From assembly GCA_035631035.1 (NCBI GenBank), contig DASQJL010000113.1, forward strand, positions 131,703-195,702: 64,000 nucleotides of DNA, written 5' to 3'. Positions 17,813-44,814 of this stretch are shown here, piece by piece (position 1 is the first letter of the stretch; every line of letters begins with the position of its first letter). The notes under the pieces are model-generated. The model was not told the DNA's origin. It saw only the letters and a list, made by a program, of their open reading frames with translations, and made no database searches. A program made the translations under genes and the position numbers. Origin of the DNA: Candidatus Binatia bacterium (GTDB taxonomy: Bacteria; Eisenbacteria; RBG-16-71-46; SZUA-252).

Positions 17813-18306
17813 GGTCCGTCTCCTTTGAGGGTGAGCGTCGTCACGGTTCCCTTGTCCAGCAGCATCACCGTGCGCGCCCCGATCTGGAGAATCTCGCGGG
17901 AGCCGACCCGCTCCCCTTCGCGGTAGACCTCACCGTTGATCAATGCCGTCCTTCCCGACGGCCCGTTCATCACGCCCTGGAGATACAGCCCCGCGCCCGG
18001 GGGCGGCAGCTCCTCGTGGCGCGCGGACGACGGCGCGGCCGCCGACGCTCCCTCCGGCCCGAAGCGCCGCCGGAAGGGGTCGCTGCCCCAGCCCGGCTCG
18101 GTCGGCGTCGAAGCGCCCTGCTTCGGAGCCGACGCCGCGAGCTGCGCCGGCGGCGGCGCACCGCCCGCGGCCCGCGCGCGAAGCCGCGCCCGCTTCGTCT
18201 GCTCGTCCAGCGACTGCACGTAGACGAGCGCCGCGACGAGAAGCCCGAGGAGCACGTAGGTCCTCGGATTCATTCCCTGCCTCGCCTGATCGCGCAGCCA
18301 GCTCAT
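17809..18306 (-). CDS. PilP-like pilus assembly lipoprotein (start probably at an internal Met)
   Basis: Hydrophobic N-terminus, a Pro/Ala-rich linker, and a C-terminal beta-domain (TALINGEVYREGERVGSREILQIGARTVMLLDKGTVTTLTLKG) resembling the PilP core. The position between pilO and pilQ supports this. Confidence 0.5.
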   Translation of the reverse strand: MSWLRDQARQGMNPRTYVLLGLLVAALVYVQSLDEQTKRARLRARAAGGAPPPAQLAASAPKQGASTPTEPGWGSDPFRRRFGPEGASAAAPSSARHEELPPPGAGLYLQGVMNGPSGRTALINGEVYREGERVGSREILQIGARTVMLLDKGTVTTLTLKGDGP

Positions 18307-18319
18307 GCCCGTTCCATCC

Positions 18320-20526: not shown

Positions 20527-20630
20527 GACGAGCCCGGCCGCGCGCCCCAGCGCGTGCGGACCTCGAATCGGTCTGTCCGCGATGCGCGACCACCAGGACC
20601 TCGCTGCGTGCCGTTCCATGCCGACTCCTC

Positions 20631-22097: not shown

Positions 22098-22636
22098 AAC
22101 GACCTCACGAACGCCGCGGTCACCGCGCTCACCGATTGCGTGCCCTTGGCCAGCCGCAGATGCACCGTGATCCTCCAGATGTCGGTCGCCGAGGGCGCGA
22201 CGATCGGCGCCGCCGCCGTGCCGTCCGCCTTCCAGTAGGCGAAGGCGAGCGAGTCGACGCCCGTGGCGAGCGGCCGCGCGGTTCCGTTCCGGGTGTACAG
22301 CAGCGGGTCCCCTTTCACGCCGGTCCAGGAGAAGGCGACGGTGGCCGAGTCGCGATCGACGAACGTGAACGCGCGCGCCGTCGCCTGCGTGATGAAGGTG
22401 GCCCCGCGCACCCGCTTCAGCTCGCGGCTGATCCGCTCCTCCGCATAGCGCGCCTCCTGAAGCATTCCCTTCTCCGCATCCACGTACTGATAGCTCCGGA
22501 TCGCCTCGGAGAACATTCCGGTGAAGACGAACGCCGCGATCGACACCACCACGATGACGATCGTCACCTCGGCGAGCGTGAACCCCTCCGCGCCCCCGGT
22601 CCGGCGGGAGGACGGGGTCAGTAGTTCGTGAACCAT
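22094..22636 (-). CDS. type IV minor pilin (prepilin-type N-terminal cleavage/methylation domain; PilW-like position)
   Basis: GFTLAEVTIVIVVVSIAAFVF is a canonical G|FTLxE prepilin motif. Confidence 0.7.
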   Translation of the reverse strand: MVHELLTPSSRRTGGAEGFTLAEVTIVIVVVSIAAFVFTGMFSEAIRSYQYVDAEKGMLQEARYAEERISRELKRVRGATFITQATARAFTFVDRDSATVAFSWTGVKGDPLLYTRNGTARPLATGVDSLAFAYWKADGTAAAPIVAPSATDIWRITVHLRLAKGTQSVSAVTAAFVRSL

Positions 22637-23010
22637 GTCGTCAGCGTCACGGAGGGCACGCTCGCAAAGGAGACGGTCACGCTCACAGTGCGGAACGTGA
22701 TGCCGTCGTAGACCGAGTCGGGCGCGAAGGAGACGGTCCGGCCGTAACCCGGAAAGGCGGCCACCGGGATCTCGGGCGGATAGTTGGCGGCGACCAGATA
22801 GGAGTACCCGCGGGATGGGGAGTTCTTGTCGGCCGCGATCTCCTCCATCTTGGACTGGGCCAGCTCGGCCATGACGGTGGCGTGGTGCGCCTCGCCGGAG
22901 CGAATCGAGGAATTGGCGAAGAGCATCCCGAGGGGGAGCACGGCGACCGCCGCGATGACCAGGATGAGGACCACCTCGGGGAGGGTGAATCCGCGCTCGG
23001 AGCGGCTCAT
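22618..23010 (-). CDS. type IV minor pilin (PilV-like)
   Basis: MSRSERGFTLPEVVLILVIAAVAVLPLGM carries a class III signal peptide with a G|FTLPE cleavage motif. Confidence 0.7.
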   Translation of the reverse strand: MSRSERGFTLPEVVLILVIAAVAVLPLGMLFANSSIRSGEAHHATVMAELAQSKMEEIAADKNSPSRGYSYLVAANYPPEIPVAAFPGYGRTVSFAPDSVYDGITFRTVSVTVSFASVPSVTLTTWFTNY

Positions 23011-23519
23011 CGGATCGTCACCGCCCCGGTCCCGGGGGCGACCTCGACGGTGTCGTTCACGCCCTGGTAGGACAGGATCACCCGTCCGGGGGTCGAAAGC
23101 TCGACGCCGGCGCTGTCGCGCGGAACGCCGAAGTAGTCGAACGAGACGGCCGGGGTGGCGCCGAACGAAGCCGCCAGAACCGTCACCCCCCGATATTCGA
23201 TCTTCTGGTTGAAGACGACCCGAAGGGTTCGCGCCCGGTCGGCGGGATCCACGAGCGGCGTGGCCGGCGTGGGCGCAAAGACCGTGTAGCGTCCGGCCGA
23301 GGGCTCGAAGTAGAGGCCGTGAACCATGCGGGTGCCGATCGAGCGGTTCTGCGCGTAGCGGAGATCCGCGGCCACGCGGCGAGCGGTCGCGTCGAGCCGG
23401 ATCTCGCTCATCGCGGCGATCTTCGGGTACGCGATCCAGGCCAGGATCGCGATGATCGTGATGCCCAGGGCCAGCTCGACGAGGGTGAAGCCTCCCGCTC
23501 CGGCTCGCGCGCCCCTCAT
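23007..23519 (-). CDS. GspH/FimT-like minor pilin
   Basis: Real start at the internal ATG (MRGARAGAGGFTLVELALGITIIAILAWIA); the upstream part of the track ORF is artefact. ATGA overlap with the upstream DUF2723 gene. Confidence 0.65.
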   Translation of the reverse strand: MRGARAGAGGFTLVELALGITIIAILAWIAYPKIAAMSEIRLDATARRVAADLRYAQNRSIGTRMVHGLYFEPSAGRYTVFAPTPATPLVDPADRARTLRVVFNQKIEYRGVTVLAASFGATPAVSFDYFGVPRDSAGVELSTPGRVILSYQGVNDTVEVAPGTGAVTIR

Positions 23520-32218: not shown

Positions 32219-35200
32219 TCAGTAGCCGCCGCCGGTGAGAACGTTCTGCCCTCCGAACCCGCGGAGGCCGCGGCTTCCCTGCTCGTAGTAGACCTCCGGC
32301 AGCAGCTTCACGTTGATCTTGAAGTAGTACTCCTTGTTGTCGCCGGAGATGCTCCGCGTGAACTGCGCCTCCCAGCAGTGGAGCTCGCGCGTCACGGTGA
32401 AGCCCTGGGCGACCAGGTTCCGATGGGTGGCGTTGTACTGCGCGTGGTAGTCGAGGCGCCATCCGCGCGAGACGTTGAGCCCGAGCGTGCTGTTCACGGT
32501 CGACTCCGACACCCACTTGCCGGCCGGATCGCGGTTTCCGCTCAGGTTGACGGCGAAGCCGACCCGCCACGGCAGGCTGGTGGAGGTCAGCCCCTCGTTG
32601 ACCAGGTAGTTCTGGCTGGTGCGCACGGCCGCCTCGCCCGGCTCGTCCGACATCGCCTGGATCGAGTCCTCCGCCGCGCGGGAGGTGCCCTGGAGCTGGA
32701 ACCCGGTCGACGCGGTCATTCCCTTGAGATTCAACGTGTACGGATCGTGGGTGAAGGAAAAGGAGAAATCGCTTCGCTCGATCGGCCGGAACACGAGCGA
32801 GGTCTGGATGTCCGAGAGCGGGCGCCGGCCCTGCCGTTTCGCGAGGAGGTCGTAGCTCGCCGTCGTGTTCGCGGAGATCAGGCTGTTGATGATCTTGGGC
32901 CGGTCGGCGCTGCCCACCTTGACGTGGATGTCGTTCCGGAGCGAGAAGGTCAGATTCTGCTGCTCGAACGACGAGAGCCCAATCCCTCCGACGCCGGAGA
33001 ACCGCGGCCTCAGGACTCCGGACGTATCGGTGAAGCTCAGCCCCTGGATCCGCGGCTGGTAGAAAAGGGTCACCGCCGGCGTGAGGACGTGCCGCAGCGC
33101 CCGGAGCGGCCCGATCGGATGCGTCATGGTGCCGAAGATCTGCGTGTTCGCACCGACCGACGCGTTCCAGGCCCCGCCGACGCGATTCCGGTCTCCCGCC
33201 TGGTCCTTGGAGTAGTACACCCCCTGGACGCCGAGGCGGGGCTGCAGCGCGAGCGGTCCCAGGTGGCGGGTGTCGCTCAGGCTGGCGGAATGGAGCATGG
33301 CGGTTCGGGCGTCCACGATCGAGTCGCGCAGGTCGGTCTGGTGCAGGAGGTCGGAGTACCGGTTCGCGATCACGTTGCGCTGGCTCAGGAGCCTCATGTC
33401 GTAGCTGTACACCGTCGTCGCCAGCCAGGGCAGGCGCGCGGGAATGCCGGAGCGGGCCAGCCAGCCGATCGGACGGGGCTGAAGGCTGAAGGTCGCGGTC
33501 GGCAGCTGCTGCTGGATGCGGGCGGCGCCGGGGTCGGGCGAGAGATCCTGGATGCGGGAGAGGCCGGCGGTCAGGCTGGCCCGGCTCCAACCCTTGGAGT
33601 AGCCGACGCTCGATCGGAGGACCCGATTGACCCGGTTCGCCAGGCTCTGCCCCACGGTGGGATCCCGGAGATACGCCGCGGAATTCGTGAGATTGAAGTC
33701 GGCGGTCAGCTGCGAGTTCGACCCCATCGGCTGGTAGTGCGTGCCCTCGAGATGCCAGTTCCGGGTCGGAGGGGCGGCGCCGAAGACATCCTGGAACGAG
33801 CCGGTGACCTGCCCGTGGTACGAGTAGCGCTTGGCATAGCGCAGGAGCCCGTGGGCGATCCAGTTGTTGTCCTGGAAGTAGTCGGCCGCACCCGTGAGGT
33901 CCAGGTAGTCGCTGACGGCCCAGTAGTAGCCCACGTTGCGCACGAACTTGCCGGCGGCCGAGCTCGAGCCGAACTCGAACTGGGGGAGCATGAACCCCGA
34001 GTGGCGGCCGCTGTTGATCGGGAAGATGTAGAAGGGGATCGCGAGGACCGGCACGTGCTTGATGTAGAAGACGACCGGCTTCGCGATGACCTTGTCGCGG
34101 AGGAGAATCCGCATCTTCCCGGCACCGAAGTGGTAGTGCGGGTCGGGCAGGTCGCAGGTGGTGTAGGTCCCCGATTTGATGTCCAGGATGTCCTCGGAAA
34201 CCCGGAGCACCCGGTCGCCGGTCACGTACCCCTGCTCGTACTTCGTCCGCCCGGCCAGCACGGCGCCGCGCCGAATTGCCAGGTCGTACGTCATCGTCTG
34301 CCCCACGATCCGGTCGGAGCCGTCCTGGAGCACCGGGTTCCCCTCGGCCCGCATTTTCTGGGTGTCCGCGTCGAAGTGGACCTGCTTCGCCTTGAGATTC
34401 ATCTCGCGGTAGACCACGGCGGCTCCCCCCTGCACGTCCACCGTGTTCCGCTTCAGGTCGTAGGCGATCTGGTCGCCGCTATAGAGGATGCGCTCCCGCT
34501 TCTCGGCCCCGGTCGTGTCCCCCTCGGCGGCCATGTAGTAGGTCCCCGACCCGTTCCCCTGGACCGTCGCGTGGCGGGGCTTTCCCTGGTCGAAGTCCAC
34601 GACGATCGTGTCCCCGTTCGAGGCGTTCCGTCCCCCCTTGGCGCTGTCGGCAGCGGAGGGCCAGTAGAACGAGCTGGCGCGACCCACGATGACCGCGCGA
34701 CGCGCGGCCTCGTTCTCGAGGTAGAGCGTGATCGTGTCCCCGCTCGCGGTGGTCCGCTCGGAGCGGCCCGCGACCGAGTCGGCCTTCGCCTCGTAGGCGA
34801 CCTTCGCGTTGGGGCGCGCCTGGATCGAGGAGACCTTGTGCTCCACGAAGCGGATCTCCAGCGTGTCGCCGCTCGCCGAGCCCTCGGCGTCCCAGGCCTT
34901 CGGCGATTCGACGAGCAGGGCCCGGTTCTCCTTCCGGAAGAAGGCGGCGCGCCCGCCCGTGGCGCGCAGGCTGTCCCGCGCCACCTGGACCTTTCCCTGC
35001 GCGAACACGCGGTCGTTCACGCGGTCGAACTCGAGGGAGTCGGCGAGGATCTTCGTCACCGTTCCGTTCGACTCGGTCAATTCCAGCCGCGGCGTCTGAT
35101 CGGCCCACGCGTAGTCGGCGCGCCGGTCGTACCGGACCCGGCCCGCGACGACGCGCGTGCTCTCGGCCGTGTCCACGGCATCCACGCGTCCCAGCGCGAG

Positions 35201-35740
35201 CACGACGTCGGTGTTCCGGTCGTACTCGATCCGATCGGCGTCCAGGGTGCGGGTGGAATCCACCATGTGGGGACGCCCCGTGATCACCGAGAGGTTCCTG
35301 TCGCGGTAGAGCCAGGCCTCGCTGCCCGAGATGCGGGTCCCCCGCTCCTGGATCCGCACGTTCCCGCGCAGGGTGGCGAGCCGCTGCTTCCGGTCGTAGG
35401 TGGCCTCGTCGCCCCACATCGTGGTAGTGCCGTCCACGATCTTCACGTTGCCCCGGAAGATCACGTACTCCCGCGTCCGGTAGACGAGCGCGGAGTCGCC
35501 GGTGACGGTGGTCGTGCCATGGATCAGCGTGGGATGGATCGCCGTGTAGACGTTCTCGGCCCCGGTGAGGGAGCCCTCGAGGCGGTCGGCCTGCAGCCGG
35601 TAGGTCTCCGCCGGCTGCGCGCGCGCCGCCGACGGGGGCACCAGTACCAGAAGGAACGAGACGATCGCGGTCGCCAGGCTCCACGCGCCCGTCAGGGTTG
35701 CGCGCCCGGCCGCGCTGCGCGCGTCCGGTTCATATCGCAC
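32219..35740 (-). CDS. LptD/OstA-like giant outer-membrane protein (tandem OstA-N/LptA-like repeats + C-terminal beta-barrel), 1173 aa
   Basis: A signal peptide, then repeated beta-jellyroll motifs (GNVxI...GDxLxY, ...RGNVRIQERGTRISGSEA...), a long C-terminal region rich in Y/G/S/N, and a terminal aromatic stretch (GGGY). Confidence 0.55.
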   Translation of the reverse strand: MRYEPDARSAAGRATLTGAWSLATAIVSFLLVLVPPSAARAQPAETYRLQADRLEGSLTGAENVYTAIHPTLIHGTTTVTGDSALVYRTREYVIFRGNVKIVDGTTTMWGDEATYDRKQRLATLRGNVRIQERGTRISGSEAWLYRDRNLSVITGRPHMVDSTRTLDADRIEYDRNTDVVLALGRVDAVDTAESTRVVAGRVRYDRRADYAWADQTPRLELTESNGTVTKILADSLEFDRVNDRVFAQGKVQVARDSLRATGGRAAFFRKENRALLVESPKAWDAEGSASGDTLEIRFVEHKVSSIQARPNAKVAYEAKADSVAGRSERTTASGDTITLYLENEAARRAVIVGRASSFYWPSAADSAKGGRNASNGDTIVVDFDQGKPRHATVQGNGSGTYYMAAEGDTTGAEKRERILYSGDQIAYDLKRNTVDVQGGAAVVYREMNLKAKQVHFDADTQKMRAEGNPVLQDGSDRIVGQTMTYDLAIRRGAVLAGRTKYEQGYVTGDRVLRVSEDILDIKSGTYTTCDLPDPHYHFGAGKMRILLRDKVIAKPVVFYIKHVPVLAIPFYIFPINSGRHSGFMLPQFEFGSSSAAGKFVRNVGYYWAVSDYLDLTGAADYFQDNNWIAHGLLRYAKRYSYHGQVTGSFQDVFGAAPPTRNWHLEGTHYQPMGSNSQLTADFNLTNSAAYLRDPTVGQSLANRVNRVLRSSVGYSKGWSRASLTAGLSRIQDLSPDPGAARIQQQLPTATFSLQPRPIGWLARSGIPARLPWLATTVYSYDMRLLSQRNVIANRYSDLLHQTDLRDSIVDARTAMLHSASLSDTRHLGPLALQPRLGVQGVYYSKDQAGDRNRVGGAWNASVGANTQIFGTMTHPIGPLRALRHVLTPAVTLFYQPRIQGLSFTDTSGVLRPRFSGVGGIGLSSFEQQNLTFSLRNDIHVKVGSADRPKIINSLISANTTASYDLLAKRQGRRPLSDIQTSLVFRPIERSDFSFSFTHDPYTLNLKGMTASTGFQLQGTSRAAEDSIQAMSDEPGEAAVRTSQNYLVNEGLTSTSLPWRVGFAVNLSGNRDPAGKWVSESTVNSTLGLNVSRGWRLDYHAQYNATHRNLVAQGFTVTRELHCWEAQFTRSISGDNKEYYFKINVKLLPEVYYEQGSRGLRGFGGQNVLTGGGY

Positions 35741-37040
35741 GCGGCACCTCGCGCCCCAGGGCCGCCATCGCCTCCGGCATGAGATAGAAGGAGCCGGTGA
35801 CCACGACGACGCCTCCCGCGGCGCGCGCCCAGTCGACGGCGCCCCGCACGGCGGCGGCGGGATCGGTCTCCACTTCGCAGCTCAGGTGGCCGGCCGGGAC
35901 GACGCGGGCGAGCGTCGCCGCCGGCGTCGCGCGCTCGCCGCCGAACTCGGTCAGCGTGAACCGGCTCGCGATGCGAGCGAGGGTGGCCAGGATCGCCTCG
36001 TGCGCCTTGTCGCGCGAGAAGGCGGCGACCACCGCGACGCTCCGTCCCGGAAAGAGCGCCGCGACCGTCTCGACCAGGGCGCGCGCCCCCTCGGCGTTGT
36101 GGGCCACGTCCGCGAGCACGGGAGGGTCCTCGCCCAGGACCTCGGCCCGGATGGGCCAGCGCGTCGCGGCGAGCCCCTCGAGGATCGATCGGGCGATGAC
36201 CGGAGCGGGGCGGCCCTCCAGCGCCACCTCGGCGGCGAGCGCGGCGAGGGCCGCGTTCCGCGCCTGATGAAACCCCAGGAGCGGCGTGCGGGCCGTGCCC
36301 GCGAAGGAGGGCGTCCTGATCCACACGTCGGTCCCGGCGCGCGTGAGCCCGCGCGCCGCGTAGCGCCCGTCGCGCCCCATCAACAGGACGCGCGCTCCCT
36401 GCCGCACGGCGGCCTCGAGGATCTCCGAGCGCGGCTCGGCGCGGCGGACCCCCAGCACCAGCGTGCCGCCGGGCTTGATGATCCCCGCCTTCTCCGCCGC
36501 GATCCGCCGGAGCGTGGGTCCCAGGATCTCGGCGTGATCGGTCGAGATGGTGGTGATGACGGAGGCCCTGGGGACGAGGACGTTGGTCGCGTCCAGGCGC
36601 CCTCCCAGACCGACCTCGACCACCGCCATGTCCACCGCTTCGCGCGCGAAGTGGTCGAAGGCGAGCGCCGTCGCCGCTTCGAAGAAGGAGGGGCGCTCCT
36701 CCTCGAAGTGCGGCCACCAGCGCTCCAGCGCCTCCTCGAGCGCCGCGTCGCCGATCTCCGCGCCGTCCACGCGAATCCGCTCGTGGAACCGCACCAGGTG
36801 GGGCGAGGTGTAGAGGCCGGTCTTCAATCCCGCGGCGCGGAGGATCGAGGCGAGATGCGCCGCGGTCGAACCCTTGCCGTTGGTGCCCGCGATCAGCACG
36901 GAGGGGAACGCGCGATCGGGCCGGCCGCCGCGCTCCAGCAGCCGCTCGATGCCGAGGAGGCCGAGCCGCATGCCGCTGCGCTCGAACCGATAGAGCTCGT
37001 CGAGGCGCCGCGTGAGCGGAGCGCCCACGGTGCGGGTCAT
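35730..37040 (-). CDS. folC: folylpolyglutamate synthase / dihydrofolate synthase
   Basis: Start at internal M336 (MTRTVGAPLTRRLDELYRF), which overlaps the accD stop (ATGA). P-loop GTNGKGS and Mur-ligase family motifs. Confidence 0.8.
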   Translation of the reverse strand: MTRTVGAPLTRRLDELYRFERSGMRLGLLGIERLLERGGRPDRAFPSVLIAGTNGKGSTAAHLASILRAAGLKTGLYTSPHLVRFHERIRVDGAEIGDAALEEALERWWPHFEEERPSFFEAATALAFDHFAREAVDMAVVEVGLGGRLDATNVLVPRASVITTISTDHAEILGPTLRRIAAEKAGIIKPGGTLVLGVRRAEPRSEILEAAVRQGARVLLMGRDGRYAARGLTRAGTDVWIRTPSFAGTARTPLLGFHQARNAALAALAAEVALEGRPAPVIARSILEGLAATRWPIRAEVLGEDPPVLADVAHNAEGARALVETVAALFPGRSVAVVAAFSRDKAHEAILATLARIASRFTLTEFGGERATPAATLARVVPAGHLSCEVETDPAAAVRGAVDWARAAGGVVVVTGSFYLMPEAMAALGREVPRAI

Positions 37041-38125
37041 TCCTGGGAGGCGGTCTCGGTCGGGGTCGGCTCGGGGGTGGATACGGGAGCGGGGGGGCGC
37101 TCGGCTGCGTTCGGATTGGCGCTCGGGTTCGCGGGGACGCCGTGCGCGGGAGACGGCGCGCCGGCGGGATGGCCGTTGTCGCTGGGCGAGAGTCCGACCG
37201 GCTCGGCCGCCGCCACCGACGCCGCCCGGAAGCGGGCCAGCGACTCGCCGGCGCGCCGCCTCGGCTTCTGCGGCAGCACCGAGGTCGCGGCGAAGAAGCG
37301 GAGCAGGTAGCCCAGCGTCTTCTTCAGCTCCTGCCGGTGCACGATCTGGTCGACCATCCCCTTCTTCATCAGGAACTCCGAGCGCTGGAAACCCTCCGGA
37401 AGCTCCTGGTTGATCGTCTGCTTGATCACGCGCGGGCCGGCGAAGCCGATCAGCGCCCTCGGCTCGGCCAGGATCACGTCCCCCACCGACGCGAAGGAGG
37501 CGGTGACGCCTCCCGTGGTGGGATGGGTCATGACCGAGACGTAGGGGATCCGCGCGTCGGAAAGCCTCGCCAGGAGCGCGTTCGTCTTCGCCATCTGCAT
37601 GAGGGAGAGGATCCCCTCGAACATCCGCGCGCCGCCCGAGGCGGAGAGGATGATGAGCGGCCGCCGCGTCTCGATCGCGAGCAGGATGCTGCGGGCGATC
37701 CGCTCCCCCGCCGCCGACGCCAGGCTCCCGCCCAGGAAGGCGAAGTCCATGATCGCGACGACGCACGCGTGGGACTCGATCGTTCCGTCGCCGCAGAGCA
37801 CCGCCTCGGTGAGGCCGGTCTCCTCCCGCGCCTTCTTCAGACGGTCGACGTAGCGCTTGGAGTCCTTGAACCGGAGGGGATCGGTGGAGACGACTTCGGA
37901 GAAGCGCTCCTGGAAGGAGCCCTCGTCGAGGAGGATCTTGGCGTAGGCGCGGGCGGAGATGCGGAAGTGGTACCCGCACTTCCCGCACGTCCAGAGGTTC
38001 CGCTCGAGCTCCTTGTGGTACAGGATCTCGCCGCATTCCTCGCACTTGACCCAGAGCCCGTCGGGCAGGTCCCGCCGCCGTTCTCTAGCTTTGAGCCCTT
38101 CCTTGGCCTTGCGAAGCCACGTCAT
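37037..38125 (-). CDS. accD: acetyl-CoA carboxylase carboxyltransferase beta subunit, with an about 80-aa Pro/Ala-rich C-terminal extension
   Basis: Zn-ribbon CEECGEILYHKELERNLWTCGKCGYH, then the carboxyltransferase core. Confidence 0.85.
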   Translation of the reverse strand: MTWLRKAKEGLKARERRRDLPDGLWVKCEECGEILYHKELERNLWTCGKCGYHFRISARAYAKILLDEGSFQERFSEVVSTDPLRFKDSKRYVDRLKKAREETGLTEAVLCGDGTIESHACVVAIMDFAFLGGSLASAAGERIARSILLAIETRRPLIILSASGGARMFEGILSLMQMAKTNALLARLSDARIPYVSVMTHPTTGGVTASFASVGDVILAEPRALIGFAGPRVIKQTINQELPEGFQRSEFLMKKGMVDQIVHRQELKKTLGYLLRFFAATSVLPQKPRRRAGESLARFRAASVAAAEPVGLSPSDNGHPAGAPSPAHGVPANPSANPNAAERPPAPVSTPEPTPTETASQE

Positions 38126-38607
38126 GCGCTGGGTCCCTCCGGGAGGGTTCGGAGCATGACAATAGCATCCTCGCTGGGGTTGCGGTAATAGTTCTTGCGG
38201 ATGGCAATATCGATGAAGTCGTTCTTGTAATAGAACTTACGGGCATTTTCGTTGGACTCCCGGACCTCCAGGGTGACCCTCCTGGCCCCCCGGCTCCGGG
38301 CCGCTTCCACCAGGTCGTCCAGGAGGAGCTGGGCCACCCCCTGCCGCCGCTCGGAGGGGTCCACGGCCAGGTTTCCGACGTGCGCCTCGTCGGCGACCAG
38401 CACGGCGCACAGGTAGCCGACCAGCGCTCCGTCCCGCTCGGCAAGCCGCGCGTAGGTCCCCCCGCCGATCATCAATTCGGACCGGAACATCTCGCGCGAC
38501 CAGGGATCGGTGAAGGAGGCCCGCTCGATCGCGAGGACCTCGTCCAGGCGCGCGACGGTGAGCGGCCGGACCCGCACCGGCTCCCCGCGTCGGGCGAGCG
38601 CGGTCAT
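38122..38607 (-). CDS. rimI: ribosomal-protein-alanine N-acetyltransferase (GNAT)
   Basis: Start at the internal ATG overlapping the tsaB stop (ATGA). GNAT motifs (RRQGVAQLLL) in a tsaE-tsaB-rimI arrangement. Confidence 0.75.
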   Translation of the reverse strand: MTALARRGEPVRVRPLTVARLDEVLAIERASFTDPWSREMFRSELMIGGGTYARLAERDGALVGYLCAVLVADEAHVGNLAVDPSERRQGVAQLLLDDLVEAARSRGARRVTLEVRESNENARKFYYKNDFIDIAIRKNYYRNPSEDAIVMLRTLPEGPSA

Positions 38608-39290
38608 CGCGCCCCCGGCTTCCGCGCGTTCGGCGCGCGGCCGTAGAGCGGCGCGGCCTCGAGCAGATCGGCCCCGGCGCCCGCGGCGAGCGCGACCGCT
38701 CCCAGCTTGGCCACGGCGGGGCCGAGCGGCACCGCCGGCAGCGTCGTTCCCCCCAGATCGAGCACCCATTCCTCCAGCGCTTCCGTGGCCGCGGCGACGG
38801 GAACATCGGCTCCCGCGCGCTCGCGCAGCCGGTCCAGCACGTCCTCTTCGGGAACGACCTCCGGCCCCCACAGGAGCCGCGCCCGGTCGTCCCCCTCCTC
38901 GACACAGCCGTCCCAGAGCGCCGCCATCACGTGGCCGCGCTCCCCCTGGGTCAGGGTCGCGAATCGGGGCGCGCTCCTCCGATGAGCGTGCGCCGCCGCA
39001 TCGTGGGACGGGATCATGAAGAGCGGAATCCCGGCGCCCAGCGAAGCGCCCTTCGCCCACGCGAGCCCGATGCGAAGCCCCGTGAAGGAGCCGGGCCCCG
39101 CGGAGACCGCGATGCCCGCCAGGTCCGCCACGCGGAGTCCGCCGCCCGCGAGGAGCCGCTCGATCGCGGGCGCGAGCCCGCTCGAGTGCCCGCCCTCGGG
39201 AAGCCGGACCGGCTCGCTCCCTTCGCCGTCCCGCGCGAGGGCGATCGAGCCGCGTGGCCCCGCCGTGTCAATTCCCAGGATAAAGCGCAT
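38604..39290 (-). CDS. tsaB: tRNA threonylcarbamoyladenosine biosynthesis protein TsaB (YeaZ)
   Basis: MRFILGIDTAGPRGSIALARDGE...GPGSFTGLRIGLAWAKG. Confidence 0.8.
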   Translation of the reverse strand: MRFILGIDTAGPRGSIALARDGEGSEPVRLPEGGHSSGLAPAIERLLAGGGLRVADLAGIAVSAGPGSFTGLRIGLAWAKGASLGAGIPLFMIPSHDAAAHAHRRSAPRFATLTQGERGHVMAALWDGCVEEGDDRARLLWGPEVVPEEDVLDRLRERAGADVPVAAATEALEEWVLDLGGTTLPAVPLGPAVAKLGAVALAAGAGADLLEAAPLYGRAPNARKPGAR

Positions 39291-39771
39291 GGCTCCATCG
39301 GTCGCGGTCCAGTTGTCCCTCGCGCGCCGTCTCTTCCCACCGGCTTCCCCGCGGACGGATCCGGAGCTCCCGCCCGCCCTCGGGGACGTAGCGAAGCTCC
39401 AGCTCCAGGCGATCCTCCGGCAGGCGGTCCTCCGCGCGGTCGGCCCACTCCACCAGCACCACCGCGTCGCCCTCGGCGAGGTCGGCCAGGCCCAGCGTCT
39501 CGATCTCGGCCGCCGCCGCCATCCGGTAGAGGTCGGCGTGCACGATGCGGGGCCCCTCGCCGTAGACCTCGACCAGCACGTACGTCGGGCTCCGCGAGCG
39601 CATGCCCGGATGGACGCCCTCGACGATGCCCTGTACCAGCGTCGTTTTGCCCGCGCCGAGCGCGCCGGTCAGCGCGATCCAGTCGCCGCGGCGGAGCAGC
39701 GTGCCCAGATGGCGCCCGAACGCGCGAGTCTCGGACTCGGTGTGGAGCAGGGATCGGATCTCGACCGGCAT
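39268..39771 (-). CDS. tsaE: tRNA t6A biosynthesis ATPase TsaE (YjeE)
   Basis: P-loop GALGAGKTTLVQG and a YjeE-family core; overlaps tsaB by 23 nt. Confidence 0.8.
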   Translation of the reverse strand: MPVEIRSLLHTESETRAFGRHLGTLLRRGDWIALTGALGAGKTTLVQGIVEGVHPGMRSRSPTYVLVEVYGEGPRIVHADLYRMAAAAEIETLGLADLAEGDAVVLVEWADRAEDRLPEDRLELELRYVPEGGRELRIRPRGSRWEETAREGQLDRDRWSHALYPGN

Positions 39772-39777: not shown

Positions 39778-41337
39778 CTACCCGCGCGGGGTCATCACCG
39801 CGACGGGCAGGATCATCTCCTCGAGCGAGATCCCCCCGTGCTGGAAGGAACCCCGGTACTTGTTCTCGTATTCGTGGAATCGCGTCGGATAGACGAAATA
39901 GAAATCCTCCTTCGCGATGATGTAGCTCTTGTGCGCCCCGTCGGCGGGAAGGCGGAAGCGCGCCGGGTCCTTCACGTGGACCGCCTGCCGCGCCTCGCAC
40001 GAGAGATTCGTCCCGAACTTGAACCGGAGGTTCGTCGAGGTCTCCCGGTTGCCGTAGACCAGCGCCGACCGCCGGCTCAGCACCGCGCCATGGTCGGTCG
40101 TCACGACCACCAGGCCGTCCTGCTTGGCCAGCCACTTCAACGCGTCGAAGAGCGCCGAGTGGAGGAACCACGAGCGCATCACCGAGCGGAAGGCCGACTC
40201 GTCGGGAGCCAGCTCCTTGAGCAGATCCGACTCCGACCGCCCGTGGGCCAGCATGTCGAGGAAGTTGAACACGATGGCGACCAGCGGCGAGTCGCGCAGC
40301 GTCGCGATGTTCCGCCGCACGTTGTTCGCCTCGTCCGCGTTGTAGACCTTGATGTACTTGGCCGGTTTCGTCTTCAGGTCGAGCCGGGCGAGCTGGGCCT
40401 CGAGGAGCTGGCGCTCATAGCGGTTCTTGCTCCGCTCGTCGCCCGACCCCTCCTGCCAGAATTCGGGGTGCGTCTTCCGGATCTCTTCGGGGAAGAGGCC
40501 CGAGAAGATCGCGTTCCGCGAGTAGGGGGTGGCGGTGGGCAGGATCGAGACGTGATGATCGAGCGCGATGTCGAAGAAGGGGCGAAGCAGCGGCTCCACC
40601 GTGAGCCACTGGTCGAGGCGCATGCAGTCGATCACGATCAGGGTGACGCGGCGCCCCTGGCGCATCGCGGGGGCCACCCAGCGCGACACGACGTCGGTGG
40701 AGAGCGCCGGCGCATCCTCGCCGCGCGCCCATCGCTCGTACGATCCTTCGACGAGCTGGGAGAATTCGACGTTCAGCTCGCGGCGCTGGTCGGCCTGGGC
40801 CTGCTTCAAGCCCTCGTCGTCCACCCCGTCCAGCTCCACGTCCCATTGCGCGTTCCGCGCGTAGAGGTCGACCCACCCGCGCCAGCTGAGACCGCCCGCC
40901 GACTCCGCGCGAAGGCGCGCCAGCTCGGCCACGTAGTCGCGCGCGCGGCGCGAGTCCTGAAGCCGGTCCGACTCGAGAATGCGCTTCAGCGCGAGGAAGA
41001 TCTGCGTGGGGCGGATCGGCTTGAGCAGGAAGTCGTCGATCCGGCGGCCGATCGCCTCGTCCATCAGGGACTCCGCCTCGTTCTTCGTGACGAGAACGAC
41101 GGGGAGCGACGGATGCTGCTCCTTGATCGCCTCGAGTGTTTCGAGTCCGCCCAGCCCTGGCATGTTCTCGTCGAGGAGGACGGCGTCGAAGCGCTCCCGC
41201 GCGGTGCAGGCCACGGCGTCGGCGCCGTTGGTGACGGGCGTGACCTTGTACCCCTTCTCCTCGAGCAGCAGGATGTGGGGCTTCAGCAGGTCGATCTCAT
41301 CATCGGCCCACAGGATCTTCTTTTCGGACGAGCTCAT
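39778..41337 (-). CDS. response regulator with a CheY-like receiver domain fused to a PglZ (alkaline-phosphatase superfamily) domain (PorX-like)
   Basis: Start at the internal ATG overlapping the kinase stop (ATGA). Receiver ILWADDEIDLL...AVLLDENMPGLGG...LKP. PglZ region with VVVTTDHGAV (T-DHG motif). Confidence 0.7.
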   Translation of the reverse strand: MSSSEKKILWADDEIDLLKPHILLLEEKGYKVTPVTNGADAVACTARERFDAVLLDENMPGLGGLETLEAIKEQHPSLPVVLVTKNEAESLMDEAIGRRIDDFLLKPIRPTQIFLALKRILESDRLQDSRRARDYVAELARLRAESAGGLSWRGWVDLYARNAQWDVELDGVDDEGLKQAQADQRRELNVEFSQLVEGSYERWARGEDAPALSTDVVSRWVAPAMRQGRRVTLIVIDCMRLDQWLTVEPLLRPFFDIALDHHVSILPTATPYSRNAIFSGLFPEEIRKTHPEFWQEGSGDERSKNRYERQLLEAQLARLDLKTKPAKYIKVYNADEANNVRRNIATLRDSPLVAIVFNFLDMLAHGRSESDLLKELAPDESAFRSVMRSWFLHSALFDALKWLAKQDGLVVVTTDHGAVLSRRSALVYGNRETSTNLRFKFGTNLSCEARQAVHVKDPARFRLPADGAHKSYIIAKEDFYFVYPTRFHEYENKYRGSFQHGGISLEEMILPVAVMTPRG

Positions 41338-42620
41338 GCGTGGGGGGCTTGCCGATGGAGGGAAACCGGGAGCGCCACGGCGACGGTGGTTCCCCGGCCG
41401 GGCGCGCTCTCCACGATGGAGATCCGTCCCCGATGGTACTCGCGCACCACCCGGCTCGCAAGCGCGAGGCCCAATCCCCAGCCGCGCCGCTTCGTCGTGA
41501 AGCCCGCCTCCAGGGCCTGCCGCCGCTCGGCCACGGTCATGCCGCGGCCGTTGTCGCGGACCCGCAGCTCCACCAGCCGCTCTTCGCGCCGCCAGAGGAG
41601 CGACACCTCGATCGTCGCGTCCGGCTTGTCCGCCGCGTCGAGCGCGTTCTTCATGAGATTCTCCACGACCCACGTGAAGAGCTCGCGATGGAAGGCGACG
41701 GGCGGGATCGGATCGTAGCGCTCGGTGATCGTGACCGACCGGCCCAGCGTCGGAAGCCGGCTCCGGACGTAGTCCACGGTCTCCGCCACGGCGCGCGTCA
41801 GATCCCCTTCCGCCAGCGCGGGCGTCGCGCCCACCTGCGAGAAGCGGTTCGCGACCCGGTGCAGCCGGTCCAGGTCCTTGTCCATCTCGTCGGCGATCGA
41901 CTCCATGCGCGCGGGATCGGTCTTCCCCTCCTGGCTCGCCTCGCGCAGGACGGAGGTCCAGCCCATCAGCGAGGAGAGCGGCGTGCCGAGCTGATGGGCG
42001 GTCTCCTTGGCGAGCGCGGCCCAGAGCGAGCGCTGCTCGCCGGCCTTGAGCCCGCGGTATCCGGCGAAGCCGAAGACCAGGAGGAGCACGATGCCGCCGA
42101 ACTCGATGTACGGAATCCATCGAAGCTGCGCCGCCAGGGAGGGCTCGCCGTAATGGACGTAGCCCAGGATGCCGGGGTGCCCCAGCCGCACCACCGGGAT
42201 CGGCCGGTTCACACGGTCGAGGCGCGCGGCCGTCTCCTGGATCCGCTTCACGACCGGAGGGATCACGCCGGTCGTGCCGGCGGCCGCGAGCACCGAATCG
42301 GGAACCGCCACCGGGTCGACGCCGATTCCCTTCCACGCGCGCGGCACGCCGTGCGTGTCGGTCAGCACCATCGGGAAATTGATGTCCCGGATCACCTCGA
42401 GGAAGATCGGCCGCAGCGTCGGCTGCTCGGCGGCGCCGAGCGTGGAGACCGCGATGAAGCGCGCGAGCACCGCGCTCAGGCTCCGCGCCTGCTCGTTCAG
42501 GCGGCGGATGACGAAATGGGAGTGGGCGACCAGGGCCATGCTGAGCACGACCATGGCCAGGAAGAGATAGACCTTGTAGGAGGGTCTGAAATCCCGCGGG
42601 GCTTCGCTCGCGCGCGCCAA
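41334..42620 (-). CDS. sensor histidine kinase (membrane-anchored, HisKA + HATPase_c)
   Basis: 428 aa. H-box ETAHQLGTPLSSLMGW; N/G boxes NLMKNALDA...VRDNGRGM...GWGLGLALA. Confidence 0.8.
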   Translation of the reverse strand: MARASEAPRDFRPSYKVYLFLAMVVLSMALVAHSHFVIRRLNEQARSLSAVLARFIAVSTLGAAEQPTLRPIFLEVIRDINFPMVLTDTHGVPRAWKGIGVDPVAVPDSVLAAAGTTGVIPPVVKRIQETAARLDRVNRPIPVVRLGHPGILGYVHYGEPSLAAQLRWIPYIEFGGIVLLLVFGFAGYRGLKAGEQRSLWAALAKETAHQLGTPLSSLMGWTSVLREASQEGKTDPARMESIADEMDKDLDRLHRVANRFSQVGATPALAEGDLTRAVAETVDYVRSRLPTLGRSVTITERYDPIPPVAFHRELFTWVVENLMKNALDAADKPDATIEVSLLWRREERLVELRVRDNGRGMTVAERRQALEAGFTTKRRGWGLGLALASRVVREYHRGRISIVESAPGRGTTVAVALPVSLHRQAPHA

Positions 42621-42644: not shown

Positions 42645-43916
<1,272 letters not shown>

Positions 43917-43917
43917 G

Positions 43918-44814
43918 TCAGTTGCTCTCGGCGGCGGCCAGCGCGCTGCGGCCACCCTCGGCCAGGAGCCGGCGCGCGAGCCGCTCGCCGATCTCCGCCG
44001 CTTCCTTCGGCTCGCCCGTTTCCGTGTCGCGGAACAGGCGGGCTCCGTCGCGCTCAGCGACCACGCCCTCCAGCTGGATCGACGTGCCGTCGTTCTGCGC
44101 CAGCGCGCCGACCGGGGCGCGCGCGTCGGCGCCCAGCGCCTTGAGAAAAGCGCGCTCGGCGTCGAACTCGGCGTGCGCGTCGGGATCGTTCAGGTGCTTG
44201 GCGGCCTTGACGAGGTCCTTGTCGCTCGAGCGGACCTGGATCACGGCCGAGCCCTGGCCCGGCGCCGGGATGAGCACCGCTGTGGTGAAGATCTCGGTGA
44301 CGCGGTCCTGGAGCTTGAGATGCTCCACCGCCGAAGCGGAGACCACGAGGCCGTCCACGTCGCCGCGCTCGAGCATCTTGATCCGCTCCTCCAGGCTCCC
44401 CGCGAAGTCCACGATCCGGAAATCGTTCCGGTAGTTGAGGAGCTGCGCGCGGCGGAGCGCGGTGTGCGCCGATAGCGCCGCCCCTTCGGCCAGGTCGTCG
44501 AGGATGGCGTCGTCGGGCGCGATGAGCACGTCGAAGGGCGTGAAGCGCGTGGTGACGGCGGCGATCGCGACGCCCGAGGTCGCCGGCGAGGCGTCCTTGG
44601 CGTTCTGGATCACCATCTCCACCTCGCCCTGCGTGAGCGCGTGCTCCAGGGCGCCGCCGGGCCAGGGCGACGTGGTGCGCCGGCCGGGATCGGCGATCGG
44701 GACGAACTGGATCGTCGCTCCGCCCAGATGCGGGCGCAGCTCCTCGGCGGTCTGCTTGCCGATCGACATCCCGAGGCGGTTGCCGCGAACGCCGATTTTG
44801 ATGGTGTGGCTCAT
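43918..44814 (-). CDS. hemC: hydroxymethylbilane synthase (porphobilinogen deaminase)
   Basis: 298 aa: IKIGVRGNRLGMSIG...AIAAVTTRFTPFDVL...PAPGQGSAVIQ. Confidence 0.85.
   Translation of the reverse strand: MSHTIKIGVRGNRLGMSIGKQTAEELRPHLGGATIQFVPIADPGRRTTSPWPGGALEHALTQGEVEMVIQNAKDASPATSGVAIAAVTTRFTPFDVLIAPDDAILDDLAEGAALSAHTALRRAQLLNYRNDFRIVDFAGSLEERIKMLERGDVDGLVVSASAVEHLKLQDRVTEIFTTAVLIPAPGQGSAVIQVRSSDKDLVKAAKHLNDPDAHAEFDAERAFLKALGADARAPVGALAQNDGTSIQLEGVVAERDGARLFRDTETGEPKEAAEIGERLARRLLAEGGRSALAAAESN

What the first reader, a model, noticed from the sequence alone, without database searches (positions are those of the whole stretch)
39778..42620. PorX/PorY-like two-component pair: receiver-PglZ response regulator coupled to a histidine kinase
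Seen: the response regulator is a CheY-like receiver fused to a PglZ/alkaline-phosphatase-superfamily domain (TTDHG motif) rather than a DNA-binding output, and it is ATGA-coupled to a membrane HisKA kinase. Established: this architecture is that of PorX, the regulator of Bacteroidetes type IX secretion, which has phosphodiesterase activity. Here it occurs next to housekeeping genes (serS, hemC, tsaE) with no T9SS genes in the window, so the target process is unknown. The type IV pilus cluster about 10 kb away is one candidate.
Basis: partly seen in the sequence, partly recalled or inferred. Interest (0 to 1): 0.5.

Follow-up and report, generated by a model that had tools for sequence, protein, structure and literature searches.

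The report
Operon-encoded PorY–PorX signalling pair
This is a true copy of the PorY sensor kinase and PorX regulator that control type IX protein secretion in Bacteroidetes, found here in an Eisenbacteria-like soil bacterium where the two genes overlap and lie among the neighbours that porX keeps in most related phyla sampled.

Summary
Window 39778-41337(-) encodes a 519-aa receiver + PglZ protein. Its ATG overlaps the TGA of a 428-aa membrane histidine kinase at 41334-42620(-).

**Identity**
- The regulator is a PorX orthologue: NCBIfam PorX equivalog 642 bits (cut-off 300), 42% identity to P. gingivalis PorX, all catalytic residues kept.
- The kinase is a PorY orthologue. A profile built only from Bacteroidota PorY scores it 263 bits end to end. 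Unrelated kinases in the comparison loci score 83 bits or less.

- The "housekeeping" neighbours are not incidental. tsaE follows porX in 66 of 78 assessable loci across the FCB-type phyla sampled. In P. gingivalis its product UbK1 phosphorylates PorX (JBC 2026).
- porY lies directly upstream of porX only in non-Bacteroidota lineages.
- sprA, the T9SS translocon gene, takes that slot in 8 Ignavibacteria-like loci.
- No pilus gene lies near porX in any of 80 loci, so the pilus idea is unsupported.

**T9SS in this organism**
The window holds no T9SS gene. A secreted 1301-aa protein with a T9SS-type C-terminal domain lies on the closely matching (99.8% identical) ENA contig, about 1.3 kb beyond the window's left end. 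T9SS control here is inferred, not shown.

Verdict: an ordinary but informative new member of a known system, in what is probably its ancestral operon form.

The parts
41334..42620 (-). porY orthologue: 428-aa sensor histidine kinase. TM1 is residues 13-39 (42504-42584). The periplasmic sensor loop is residues 40-167 (42120-42503). TM2 is residues 168-187 (42060-42119). The phospho-acceptor His209 is at 41994-41996. HATPase_c covers residues 316-419. There is no HAMP domain.
41334..41337 (-). ATGA overlap: the porY stop codon TGA overlaps the porX start codon ATG, consistent with translational coupling.
   Evidence: Junction sequence CACGCATGAGC. Overlapping junctions also appear in porY-porX loci L018, L048 and L073.
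39778..41337 (-). porX orthologue: 519-aa response regulator with a PglZ / alkaline-phosphatase-superfamily phosphodiesterase domain.
   Evidence: NCBIfam NF052313 T9SS_RR_PorX equivalog, 642.5 bits against a cut-off of 300, residues 7-518 on profile 2-513 of 513. PDB 7pv7, 8ted and 8p6f, E 1e-131 to 1e-133. 42% identity to P. gingivalis PorX.
40987..41316 (-). PorX receiver domain (residues 8-117). The phospho-acceptor Asp56 is at 41170-41172. Ser77 (41107-41109) sits at the position of P. gingivalis Tyr79.
   Evidence: Pfam Response_reg 81 bits. Residue mapping. Asp is invariant in 74 PorX sequences; the Tyr79 column is variable.
39784..40653 (-). PorX PglZ/APS catalytic domain (Pfam residues 229-423; the homology to solved PorX runs to residue 518). 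Metal ligands are D237, T270 (catalytic Thr), D361, H365, D415, H416 and H500. Phosphate contacts are R274 and N358.
   Evidence: Pfam PglZ 71 bits. The residue list comes from PMC9757075 and was mapped and found conserved. The residues are invariant in 74 sequences, except N358 in 73 of 74.
39268..39771 (-). tsaE (UbK/YjeE family ATPase-kinase), 6 nt downstream of the porX stop. It is a conserved partner gene and a possible second phospho-input to PorX.
   Evidence: Pfam TsaE 116.5 bits. Motifs GAGKTT (39-44), SPT (61-63), HADLYR (78-83) and EW (108-109). tsaE lies within 700 bp downstream on the same strand in 66 of 78 porX loci. P. gingivalis UbK1 phosphorylates PorX in vitro (PMC13241743).
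32219..39290 (-). Conserved downstream context, tightly packed and co-directional: tsaB 38604-39290, rimI 38122-38607, accD 37037-38125, folC 35730-37040, lptD-like 32219-35740.
   Evidence: Precomputed Pfam annotation. The same order is seen in Eisenbacteria, Latescibacteria and Fibrobacteraceae loci, and the tsaB-rimI-accD-folC part in several Zixibacteria- and Ignavibacteriales-labelled loci.
42645..44814 (-). Conserved upstream context: serS 42645-43916 (24 nt before porY) and hemC 43918-44814.
   Evidence: Precomputed Pfam annotation. serS precedes porY in most porY-porX loci.

Best explanation
The locus encodes the PorY-PorX two-component system of an Eisenbacteria-like bacterium, in operon form.

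**Shown by sequence**
- A membrane kinase with two TM helices, a periplasmic loop of about 130 aa, no HAMP domain and His209. It is orthologous end to end to Bacteroidota PorY.
- Its gene overlaps that of a 519-aa PorX orthologue carrying Asp56 and a complete di-zinc PglZ/alkaline-phosphatase active site.

**Inferred from work on P. gingivalis and F. johnsoniae**
1. A periplasmic or envelope signal makes PorY autophosphorylate on His209.
2. The phosphoryl group passes to PorX Asp56.
3. Phospho-PorX dimerises. This switches on its phosphodiesterase activity against linear and cyclic oligonucleotides, and lets it bind partners (the PorL/GldL motor protein and an ECF sigma factor).
4. [quoted passage not shown]

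**Setting**
The genes lie in a tightly packed, co-directional string: serS-porY-porX-tsaE-tsaB-rimI-accD-folC-lptD-like. This is the conserved, probably ancestral, setting of porX. Bacteroidota kept porX-tsaE but not the adjacent porY. tsaE (UbK family) immediately downstream may give PorX a second phosphorylation input.

**Likelihood**
I put the identity of the pair at about 0.9. I put T9SS as the controlled process in this organism at about 0.6.
For: **PorX identity**
- NCBIfam equivalog 642.5 bits against a cut-off of 300, full length.
- PDB PorX structures at E 1e-131 to 1e-133.
- D56, D237, T270, R274, N358, D361, H365, D415, H416 and H500 are all kept. They are invariant or near-invariant in 74 homologues.

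**PorY identity**
- 32% identity over 406 aa to P. gingivalis PorY, E 5e-60, including the sensor loop and an almost identical H-box.
- A Bacteroidota-only PorY HMM gives 263 bits end to end. Control kinases in the same loci give 83 bits or less, and only over the DHp-CA part.
- The layout matches published PorY: 395 aa, TM helices at 14-36 and 149-173, His193.

**Coupling**
- ATGA overlap.
- porY lies directly upstream of porX in 18 of 74 assessable loci. These carry seven different lineage labels (Eisenbacteria, Latescibacterota, Poribacteria, Zixibacteria, Fibrobacteraceae, Gemmatimonadetes, Ignavibacteriales) plus three MAGs labelled only 'bacterium'. Four more Eisenbacteria loci have it 0.9-5.4 kb upstream.
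- PorX and kinase homologues are listed with the same longest-contig lengths, which suggests they share large contigs.

**T9SS link**
- sprA/sov (TIGR04189, 1055 bits) lies immediately upstream of porX in 8 loci.
- A signal-peptide-bearing 1301-aa Ig-repeat protein lies about 1.3 kb beyond the window's left end on the matching ENA contig. It ends in a CTD with the PNPxNP...GRLVKTL...WDGTD..G..VSSGV[FY]F..K motifs. Eleven of 19 homologues carry PF18962. Its profile hits the C-terminal CTDs of PorU (2e-6) and PorZ (3e-5).
- The literature reports PorX only in the FCB group, always together with T9SS (PMC9757075).
Against: - No T9SS core gene (gldK/L/M/N, sprA, porV/U/P/T) and no ECF sigma gene was seen in the roughly 74 kb of contig examined.
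- The cargo CTD scores below the TIGR04183 cut-off (19.1 against 23). It also matches the FlgD Ig-like domain better than it matches PorU/PorZ.
- No publication in the searched library reports a T9SS in Eisenbacteria.
- Even in P. gingivalis the PorY-PorX pairing and its outputs are debated. The porY deletion phenotype is weak, and PorX has roles beyond T9SS.
- Nothing here tests phosphotransfer, enzyme activity or transcription.
Confidence: 0.8

Rival explanations
1. The pair is PorXY by descent, but in this lineage it controls something other than type IX secretion. Candidates are outer-membrane or LPS biogenesis, or general oligonucleotide turnover. The organism may lack a T9SS, or PorX may act as a broader regulatory hub.
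For: - No T9SS core gene in the roughly 74 kb examined.
- LPS and outer-membrane genes recur beside porX in different phyla: lptD-like here, lptF/G in L028, lpxD-lpxC/fabZ in L079.
- The JBC 2026 and PNAS Nexus 2024 papers argue that PorX has roles beyond T9SS.
Against: - A cargo-type CTD protein lies on the matching contig.
- sprA is adjacent to porX in 8 related loci.
- The published phylogenetic profile ties PorX to T9SS.
- Gene neighbourhoods built from essential genes are weak functional evidence.
Confidence: 0.2
2. The pair regulates the type IV pilus cluster that lies about 10 kb away (window 16466-29128).
For: Only proximity within this window.
Against: - No PilB, PilC, PilQ or PilMN homologue lies within 10 kb of porX in any of 80 loci from many phyla.
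- Seven unrelated genes separate the two clusters.
- The pilus cluster has its own single-domain receiver at 16053-16454.
- No precedent for PorX in pilus control appeared in the papers read.
Confidence: 0.04
3. The PglZ protein belongs to a BREX-type phage defence system rather than to a signalling pair.
For: A weak NCBIfam hit to BREX_PglZ_3 (82.7 bits) reflects shared PglZ ancestry.
Against: - The score is far below the 250-bit cut-off.
- The protein is 519 aa; BREX PglZ proteins are at least 600 aa (PMC9757075).
- No pglX, brxC or brxL-type neighbour is present.
- The PorX equivalog score is about eight times higher.
Confidence: 0.01
4. The porX-tsaE adjacency carries no signalling meaning. 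porX simply sits at the head of the widespread tsaE-tsaB-rimI (t6A tRNA modification) gene string and is carried along with it.
For: - tsaE-tsaB-rimI is a common housekeeping cluster (own knowledge).
- The UbK1 target residue Tyr79 of P. gingivalis PorX is unique to P. gingivalis among 74 sequences.
- Mutating Tyr79 gave no T9SS phenotype.
Against: - Adjacency survives in 66 of 78 loci across very deep divergence, while tsaB, rimI and other neighbours come and go. In L090, insertions occur everywhere except inside porY-porX-tsaE.
- UbK1 phosphorylates PorX in vitro.
Confidence: 0.45

Closest known systems
PorX (PGN_1019) / PorY (PGN_2001) of Porphyromonas gingivalis
   Same: - Both proteins are full-length orthologues: PorX 42% identity, PorY 32% identity.
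- Same domain order and same lengths (519 against 518 aa; 428 against 395 aa).
- Same phospho-sites (Asp56 for Asp58, His209 for His193).
- Identical zinc ligands and catalytic Thr; near-identical H-box.
- tsaE/ubK1 lies directly downstream of porX in both.
   Different: - Here the two genes overlap by 4 nt in one operon. In P. gingivalis they lie about 1000 genes apart and are treated as orphans.
- Tyr79, the UbK1 site, is Ser77 here.
- The host is an Eisenbacteria-like organism with 70% GC.
- The presence of T9SS, SigP and PorA is unverified.
PorX of Flavobacterium johnsoniae (Fjoh_2906; PDB 8ted/8p6f as I attribute them)
   Same: Full-length match at E about 1e-131 with the same REC-helical bundle-APS build. 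Phosphodiesterase activity and GldL binding are reported for it (PMC10951265).
   Different: No regulation by a two-component kinase has been described in F. johnsoniae. In the Bacteroidota loci sampled here, no porY lay next to porX.
UbK1-PorX phosphorylation module (Saran et al., J Biol Chem 2026, PMC13241743)
   Same: The tsaE/ubK gene lies immediately downstream of porX. The Walker A, SPT, HxDxYR and EW motifs are present, with D80, Y82 and E108 at the same residue numbers as in UbK1.
   Different: That paper examined only 81 P. gingivalis strains. Here the adjacency is seen across about a dozen phylum-level lineages. The Tyr79 target residue is not conserved.
BREX PglZ phosphatases
   Same: They share the PglZ / alkaline-phosphatase fold and metal ligands.
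   Different: The window protein has a receiver domain, which the BREX PglZ proteins described in PMC9757075 are not reported to have. They are at least 600 aa and belong to defence gene sets. The window protein fails their NCBIfam cut-offs.

Membership tests
PorX (NCBIfam NF052313, T9SS response regulator signal transducer) | Full-length match above the curated equivalog cut-off | tested here: met
   642.5 bits against a cut-off of 300; residues 7-518 on profile 2-513 of 513.
PorX (NCBIfam NF052313, T9SS response regulator signal transducer) | N-terminal receiver domain with a phospho-acceptor Asp (P. gingivalis D58) | tested here: met
   Response_reg 81 bits. D56 aligns with D58 and is invariant in 74 sequences.
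PorX (NCBIfam NF052313, T9SS response regulator signal transducer) | PglZ/APS domain with di-zinc ligands D239, T272, D361, H365, D415, H416, H500 and phosphate contacts R276, N358 | tested here: met
   All are present as D237, T270, D361, H365, D415, H416, H500, R274 and N358.
PorX (NCBIfam NF052313, T9SS response regulator signal transducer) | Length of 500-530 aa with no DNA-binding output domain | tested here: met
   519 aa; only Response_reg and PglZ domains found; the length criterion comes from PMC9757075.
PorX (NCBIfam NF052313, T9SS response regulator signal transducer) | Zn-dependent phosphodiesterase activity; binding to PorL/GldL and SigP | not testable with these tools
   These are biochemical properties. 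Only the conservation of the active site can be shown.
PorX (NCBIfam NF052313, T9SS response regulator signal transducer) | Co-occurrence with a type IX secretion system in the same genome | tested here: inconclusive
   No core T9SS gene in the roughly 74 kb of contig seen. A CTD-type cargo protein lies on the matching contig. sprA is adjacent to porX in 8 related loci.
PorY sensor histidine kinase | End-to-end homology to Bacteroidota PorY, including the TM hairpin and periplasmic loop, and clearly above other kinases | tested here: met
   HMM from 8 Bacteroidota PorY: 262.9 bits, profile positions 11-381 of 385. Control kinases score 83 bits or less, and only over the DHp-CA part. BLASTP against P. 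gingivalis PorY gives E 5e-60.
PorY sensor histidine kinase | Two TM helices flanking a loop of about 115-130 aa; no HAMP domain; phospho-acceptor His about 20 residues after TM2 | tested here: met
   TM helices at 13-39 and 168-187, His209. Published PorY has TM helices at 14-36 and 149-173, His193.
PorY sensor histidine kinase | Phosphotransfer to PorX | not testable with these tools
   Supported only indirectly, by the 4-nt gene overlap and by recurrent adjacency in 18 of 74 loci.
TsaE / UbK (YjeE) family | Pfam TsaE match plus the Walker A, SPT/S, HxDxYR and EW motifs | tested here: met
   PF02367, 116.5 bits. GAGKTT, SPT, HADLYR and EW are present.
TsaE / UbK (YjeE) family | The UbK1 target residue Tyr79 is present in the adjacent PorX | tested here: not met
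   The window has Ser77. Across 74 PorX sequences the column reads S19, N15, H9, G7, D6 and so on, with Tyr only in P. gingivalis.
BREX PglZ | Score above the NCBIfam BREX_PglZ cut-offs, length of at least 600 aa, and BREX neighbour genes | tested here: not met
   82.7 bits against 250 for BREX-3 and 38.8 against 200 for BREX-2. The protein is 519 aa. No BREX genes are nearby.
T9SS type A C-terminal sorting domain (for the 1301-aa protein at L009 12826-16731, just outside the window) | A domain at the extreme C-terminus of a signal-peptide-bearing protein, matching TIGR04183/PF18962 | tested here: inconclusive
   TIGR04183 scores 19.1 bits against a cut-off of 23, while FlgD_ig scores 36.6 bits. 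Eleven of 19 homologues carry PF18962. The profile hits the PorU and PorZ CTDs at 2e-6 and 3e-5, but hits FlgD at 4e-9. A signal peptide is present.

The most novel reading that the evidence does not exclude
porY-porX-tsaE is an ancient three-gene signalling module of the FCB-type phyla. In this reading PorY is the true cognate kinase of PorX, and TsaE/UbK supplies a second, non-Asp phosphorylation or binding input. The original role of the module would be to couple envelope status (LPS and outer-membrane biogenesis, next to which it is always encoded) to secretion. Bacteroidota would be the derived state, in which porY was moved elsewhere in the genome.
Probability: 0.2. Interest if true: 0.6.

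Novelty: new member of a known kind. Interest (0 to 1): 0.4.

Why it matters
In P. gingivalis, PorX and PorY are treated as orphans. Recent structural papers openly doubt that PorY is PorX's real kinase (PMC9757075, PMC11320123).

A porY gene that overlaps porX, and recurs next to it under at least seven lineage labels, is independent evolutionary evidence for the pairing. It also offers simpler natural systems for testing phosphotransfer and finding the signal.

The adjacency of porX and tsaE across phyla extends a 2026 observation that was made only within P. gingivalis strains. It makes the UbK-PorX link testable outside oral pathogens.

The locus also hints that Eisenbacteria have a type IX secretion system. 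No paper in the library searched reports this.

Tried and rejected
- **Foldseek against afdb50**, to find PorY-like models: the library was not available.
- **NCBIfam scan of the kinase N-terminal 199 aa**: no family.
- **Promoter and terminator scan of 32-50 kb**: counts at or below shuffled expectation, so no operon boundaries can be drawn.
- **The look-up of encoding contigs**: failed for three window proteins, so the right-hand 13 kb and the far-left 10 kb of the 97-kb contig were never seen.
- **Literature searches for T9SS in Eisenbacteria**: nothing found. A broad search across several phyla was uninformative.
- **Relative with 59% PorX identity (L090)**: checked for nearby T9SS genes; only the same housekeeping block was found.
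- **BREX and type IV pilus readings**: rejected.
Full report
**1. The observation**

The finding's coordinates hold two minus-strand genes. Window 41334-42620 encodes a 428-aa protein. Window 39778-41337 encodes a 519-aa protein. The junction reads CAC GCA TGA GC, so the second gene's ATG overlaps the first gene's TGA. The window is 70% GC, so many long ORFs appear on both strands. GC3 values of 0.88-0.93 pick out the minus-strand frames as coding.

Pfam finds Response_reg (residues 8-117, 81 bits) and PglZ (229-423, 71 bits) in the 519-aa protein. In the 428-aa protein it finds HATPase_c (70 bits) and a near-threshold HisKA (25.0 against 26.9). The TTDHG motif is residues 413-417.

**2. The regulator is PorX, not merely PorX-like**

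- NCBIfam's curated equivalog model NF052313 (T9SS response regulator signal transducer PorX) scores 642.5 bits against a cut-off of 300, and it matches over the whole length. The best BREX PglZ model reaches only 82.7 bits against a cut-off of 250.
- The solved PorX structures (7pv7 and 7pvk from P. gingivalis; 8ted and 8p6f) match at E 1e-131 to 1e-133 over residues 6-518. Identity to P. gingivalis PorX is 42%.
- The functional residues listed in the structural paper (PMC9757075) are all present: Asp58 as D56, metal ligands D239/T272/D361/H365/D415/H416/H500 as D237/T270/D361/H365/D415/H416/H500, and phosphate contacts R276/N358 as R274/N358.
- These residues are invariant, or 73 of 74 for N358, in 74 PorX sequences that I extracted from related loci.

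**3. The kinase is PorY**

P. gingivalis PorY is described as 395 aa, with TM helices at 14-36 and 149-173, a periplasmic loop of about 115 aa and His193 (PMC5005315). The window kinase has hydrophobic segments at 13-39 and 168-187, a loop of about 130 aa, no HAMP domain and His209.

I obtained PorY sequences from the supplement of PMC7323717.
- BLASTP of the window kinase against P. gingivalis PorY gives 32% identity over 406 residues, E 5e-60. The alignment runs from TM1 through the sensor loop to the C-terminus. The H-boxes are nearly identical: KETAHQLGTPLSSLMGW against KETAHQLGTPISSLMAW.
- A profile HMM built only from eight Bacteroidota PorY sequences scores the window kinase at 262.9 bits (E 3e-79) over profile positions 11-381 of 385.
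- Every kinase found next to porX in other phyla scores 247-336 bits end to end.
- Other histidine kinases in the same loci score 83 bits or less, and only over the DHp-CA part.

**4. Whose genome**

The closest named relatives of both proteins are Candidatus Eisenbacteria MAGs: 83% identity for PorX (P0012) and 77% in genome locus L010.

The window is 99.8% identical to ENA metagenome contig ERZ27257288 k141_989311 (97 kb), apart from one indel of about 70 bp. NCBI taxonomy lists Eiseniibacteriota among candidate phyla and not formally in the FCB group. Its placement in the FCB superphylum is from my own knowledge.

**5. The surroundings, and why they are not incidental**

Precomputed Pfam annotation retrieved through the look-up of encoding contigs covers window 1-61121. 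The pair sits in a co-directional string with gaps of 0-55 nt or small overlaps:

macA/B-type ABC genes, hemC, serS, porY, porX, tsaE (6 nt after the porX stop), tsaB, rimI, accD, folC, and a 1173-aa LptD-like protein.

I then fetched 80 porX loci from one-per-species genomes. They span Eisenbacteria, Latescibacterota, KSB1, Poribacteria, Calditrichota, Ignavibacteria, Chlorobi-labelled MAGs, Zixibacteria, Cloacimonadota, Marinimicrobia, Fibrobacteraceae, Gemmatimonadetes and several Bacteroidota classes.

tblastn with the window proteins gave these results:

| Arrangement | Count | Where |
|---|---|---|
| tsaE within 700 bp downstream of porX, same strand | 66 of 78 assessable loci | most of these groups (absent in the two Poribacteria and two Rhodothermales loci) |
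| porY directly upstream of porX | 18 of 74 | never in a locus assigned to a Bacteroidota class |
| porY 0.9-5.4 kb upstream of porX | 4 further loci | Eisenbacteria |

- The whole serS-to-lptD block recurs in Eisenbacteria, Latescibacteria and Fibrobacteraceae loci. Parts of it (serS-porY-porX-tsaE-tsaB-rimI, often with accD and folC) recur in Zixibacteria-labelled and some Ignavibacteriales-labelled loci.
- In a relative with 59% PorX identity (L090), extra genes are inserted at several points in the block, but not inside porY-porX-tsaE.
- Overlapping junctions also occur in L018, L048 and L073.

**6. The tsaE neighbour has a literature link**

A 2026 paper (PMC13241743) reports three things. 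ubK1, the TsaE/YjeE-family gene of P. gingivalis, lies directly downstream of porX in 81 strains. UbK1 phosphorylates PorX on Tyr79 in vitro. A Tyr79 mutation does not affect gingipain secretion.

The window TsaE has the Walker A, SPT, HxDxYR and EW motifs, with D80, Y82 and E108 at the same residue numbers as in UbK1. However, the Tyr79 position is Ser77 here and is highly variable across 74 PorX sequences; Tyr occurs only in P. gingivalis.

So the gene order is deeply conserved but the known phosphosite is not. Either the interaction uses other sites, or the order is kept for reasons unrelated to signalling. I rate these two readings as roughly even.

**7. The link to type IX secretion**

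The window itself has no T9SS gene. The precomputed Pfam lists show none. NCBIfam scans of nine further proteins, including the four longest window ORFs without a Pfam family, found none in the window. The last 3 kb were read only as translations and look like an aspartase/fumarase-type enzyme and a small lipoprotein.

Three lines of evidence still point to T9SS.

- **sprA next to porX elsewhere.** In eight loci (L028, L032, L033, L036, L037, L040, L047, L064: Ignavibacterium, Melioribacter and similarly placed MAGs) the gene immediately upstream of porX, on the same strand, is the translocon gene sprA/sov. The representative scanned scores 1055 bits on TIGR04189; the other seven were assigned by BLAST clustering.
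- **A cargo-type protein nearby.** On the matching ENA contig, about 1.3 kb beyond the window's left end, a 1301-aa protein has a signal peptide, He_PIG/Big_9 repeats and a C-terminal domain of about 85 aa.
  - The domain contains PNPLNP, GRLVKTL and WDGTD..G..VSSGVFFFR motifs and ends in K-x-x-x-K style.
  - It scores 19.1 bits on TIGR04183 (cut-off 23) and 36.6 bits on FlgD_ig.
  - Eleven of its 19 database homologues carry PF18962.
  - A profile of these domains hits the C-terminal sorting domains of PorU (E 2e-6) and PorZ (3e-5). It hits FlgD Ig-like domains somewhat better.
- **The published phylogenetic profile.** PorX is reported as restricted to the FCB group and always accompanied by T9SS (PMC9757075). 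T9SS is thought to exist in several non-Bacteroidota FCB phyla (PMC11285876).

I found no paper on T9SS in Eisenbacteria. The T9SS output in this organism is therefore inferred, at about 0.6.

**8. Rejected readings**

- **Type IV pilus cluster (16466-29128).** It is separated from the pair by seven unrelated genes. It has its own single-domain receiver. It has no counterpart within 10 kb of porX in any of the 80 loci.
- **BREX.** It fails on score, protein length and gene neighbours.

**9. Mechanism**

*Shown here:* orthology, intact phospho-sites, an intact active site, gene overlap and conserved synteny.

*Inferred from published work on P. gingivalis and F. johnsoniae:*
1. The PorY periplasmic loop senses a signal. 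In P. gingivalis the signal has been proposed to be the CTD protein PorA.
2. PorY autophosphorylates and transfers the phosphoryl group to PorX Asp.
3. PorX dimerises.
4. Its Zn-dependent phosphodiesterase is activated on oligonucleotides, and it binds PorL/GldL and an ECF sigma factor.
5. T9SS expression or activity changes.

**10. Novelty and interest**

The proteins are ordinary orthologues, so this is a new member of a known kind. The informative part is the gene organisation.

- The field treats PorX and PorY as orphans and questions their pairing.
- No paper in the searched library describes a porY-porX operon.
- The operon form, seen under at least seven lineage labels, is independent support for the pairing and is probably the ancestral state.
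- The porX-tsaE linkage extends a strain-level observation to the whole superphylum.

I score interest at 0.4.

Noticed in passing
L010-L089 (porX loci); window 39268-39771: tsaE (UbK/YjeE family) lies directly downstream of porX in 66 of 78 assessable loci across about a dozen phylum-level lineages. The published observation covered only 81 P. gingivalis strains. The UbK1 target residue Tyr79 is not conserved (Ser77 here).
   Followed up: yes
L028 3416-9895; also L032, L033, L036, L037, L040, L047, L064: The T9SS translocon gene sprA/sov (TIGR04189, 1055 bits for L028) lies immediately upstream of porX on the same strand in eight Ignavibacteria/Melioribacter-like loci. It occupies the slot that porY occupies in other phyla. 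Only L028 was scanned; the other seven were assigned by BLAST clustering.
   Followed up: partly
L009 12826-16731 (matching ENA contig, about 1.3 kb beyond the window's left end): A 1301-aa secreted He_PIG/Big_9 repeat protein ends in a T9SS type-A-like C-terminal domain. This is a hint that this Eisenbacteria-like organism has type IX secretion, which no paper in the searched library reports.
   Followed up: yes
L020 12738-14171; L073 12872-14209: In a Latescibacterota and a Gemmatimonadetes locus, a PorV/PorQ/BamG-like outer-membrane barrel lies two genes after porX-tsaE. The hits are below threshold (54 and 38 bits against a cut-off of 90).
   Followed up: no
L021, L025 (Candidatus Poribacteria chromosomes): Poribacteria MAGs, which NCBI taxonomy does not place in the FCB group, carry an adjacent porY-porX pair. 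RNase G rather than tsaE lies downstream. This could reflect horizontal transfer or a wider distribution than published.
   Followed up: partly
L020 8118-9977, L026 8142-9938, L073 8166-10001, L021 8410-10005, L025 8407-10005: The PorY homologues in these loci appear to be about 530-620 aa, and the PorY profile matches the sensor region twice. This suggests a partly duplicated periplasmic module. It rests on crude ORF calls.
   Followed up: no
window 32219-35740; L028 1726-3114; L079 6247-8684: LPS and outer-membrane biogenesis genes recur beside porX in different phyla: lptD-like here, lptF/G in L028, and lpxD plus lpxC/fabZ in the Bacteroidota locus L079.
   Followed up: no
window 16053-29128: The type IV pilus cluster holds pilB, pilC, a pilin and a TMEM260_N-like 688-aa protein (23516-25582). 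It also holds minor pilins, an NHL-repeat protein (20631-22097), a fused PilM-PilN (18901-20619), pilO and pilQ, followed by a single-domain receiver (16053-16454).
   Followed up: partly
window 5983-7557 (+): A 524-aa ORF lies on the opposite strand to its neighbours, with lower GC3 (0.74-0.81) and no Pfam family. It has a weak NCBIfam IscB hit (E 3e-5, residues 370-457) and may be a foreign or HNH-type gene.
   Followed up: no
window 29290-31345: A multihaem cytochrome (Cytochrome_C554-like, 349 aa) and an adjacent 332-aa protein with no family hit lie between the HU gene and pilB.
   Followed up: no
window about 9416-9455: The window differs from ENA contig k141_989311 by about 0.2% substitutions and one indel of about 70 bp in the LemA / TonB-receptor intergenic region. 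The window therefore comes from a closely related but not identical assembly.
   Followed up: partly
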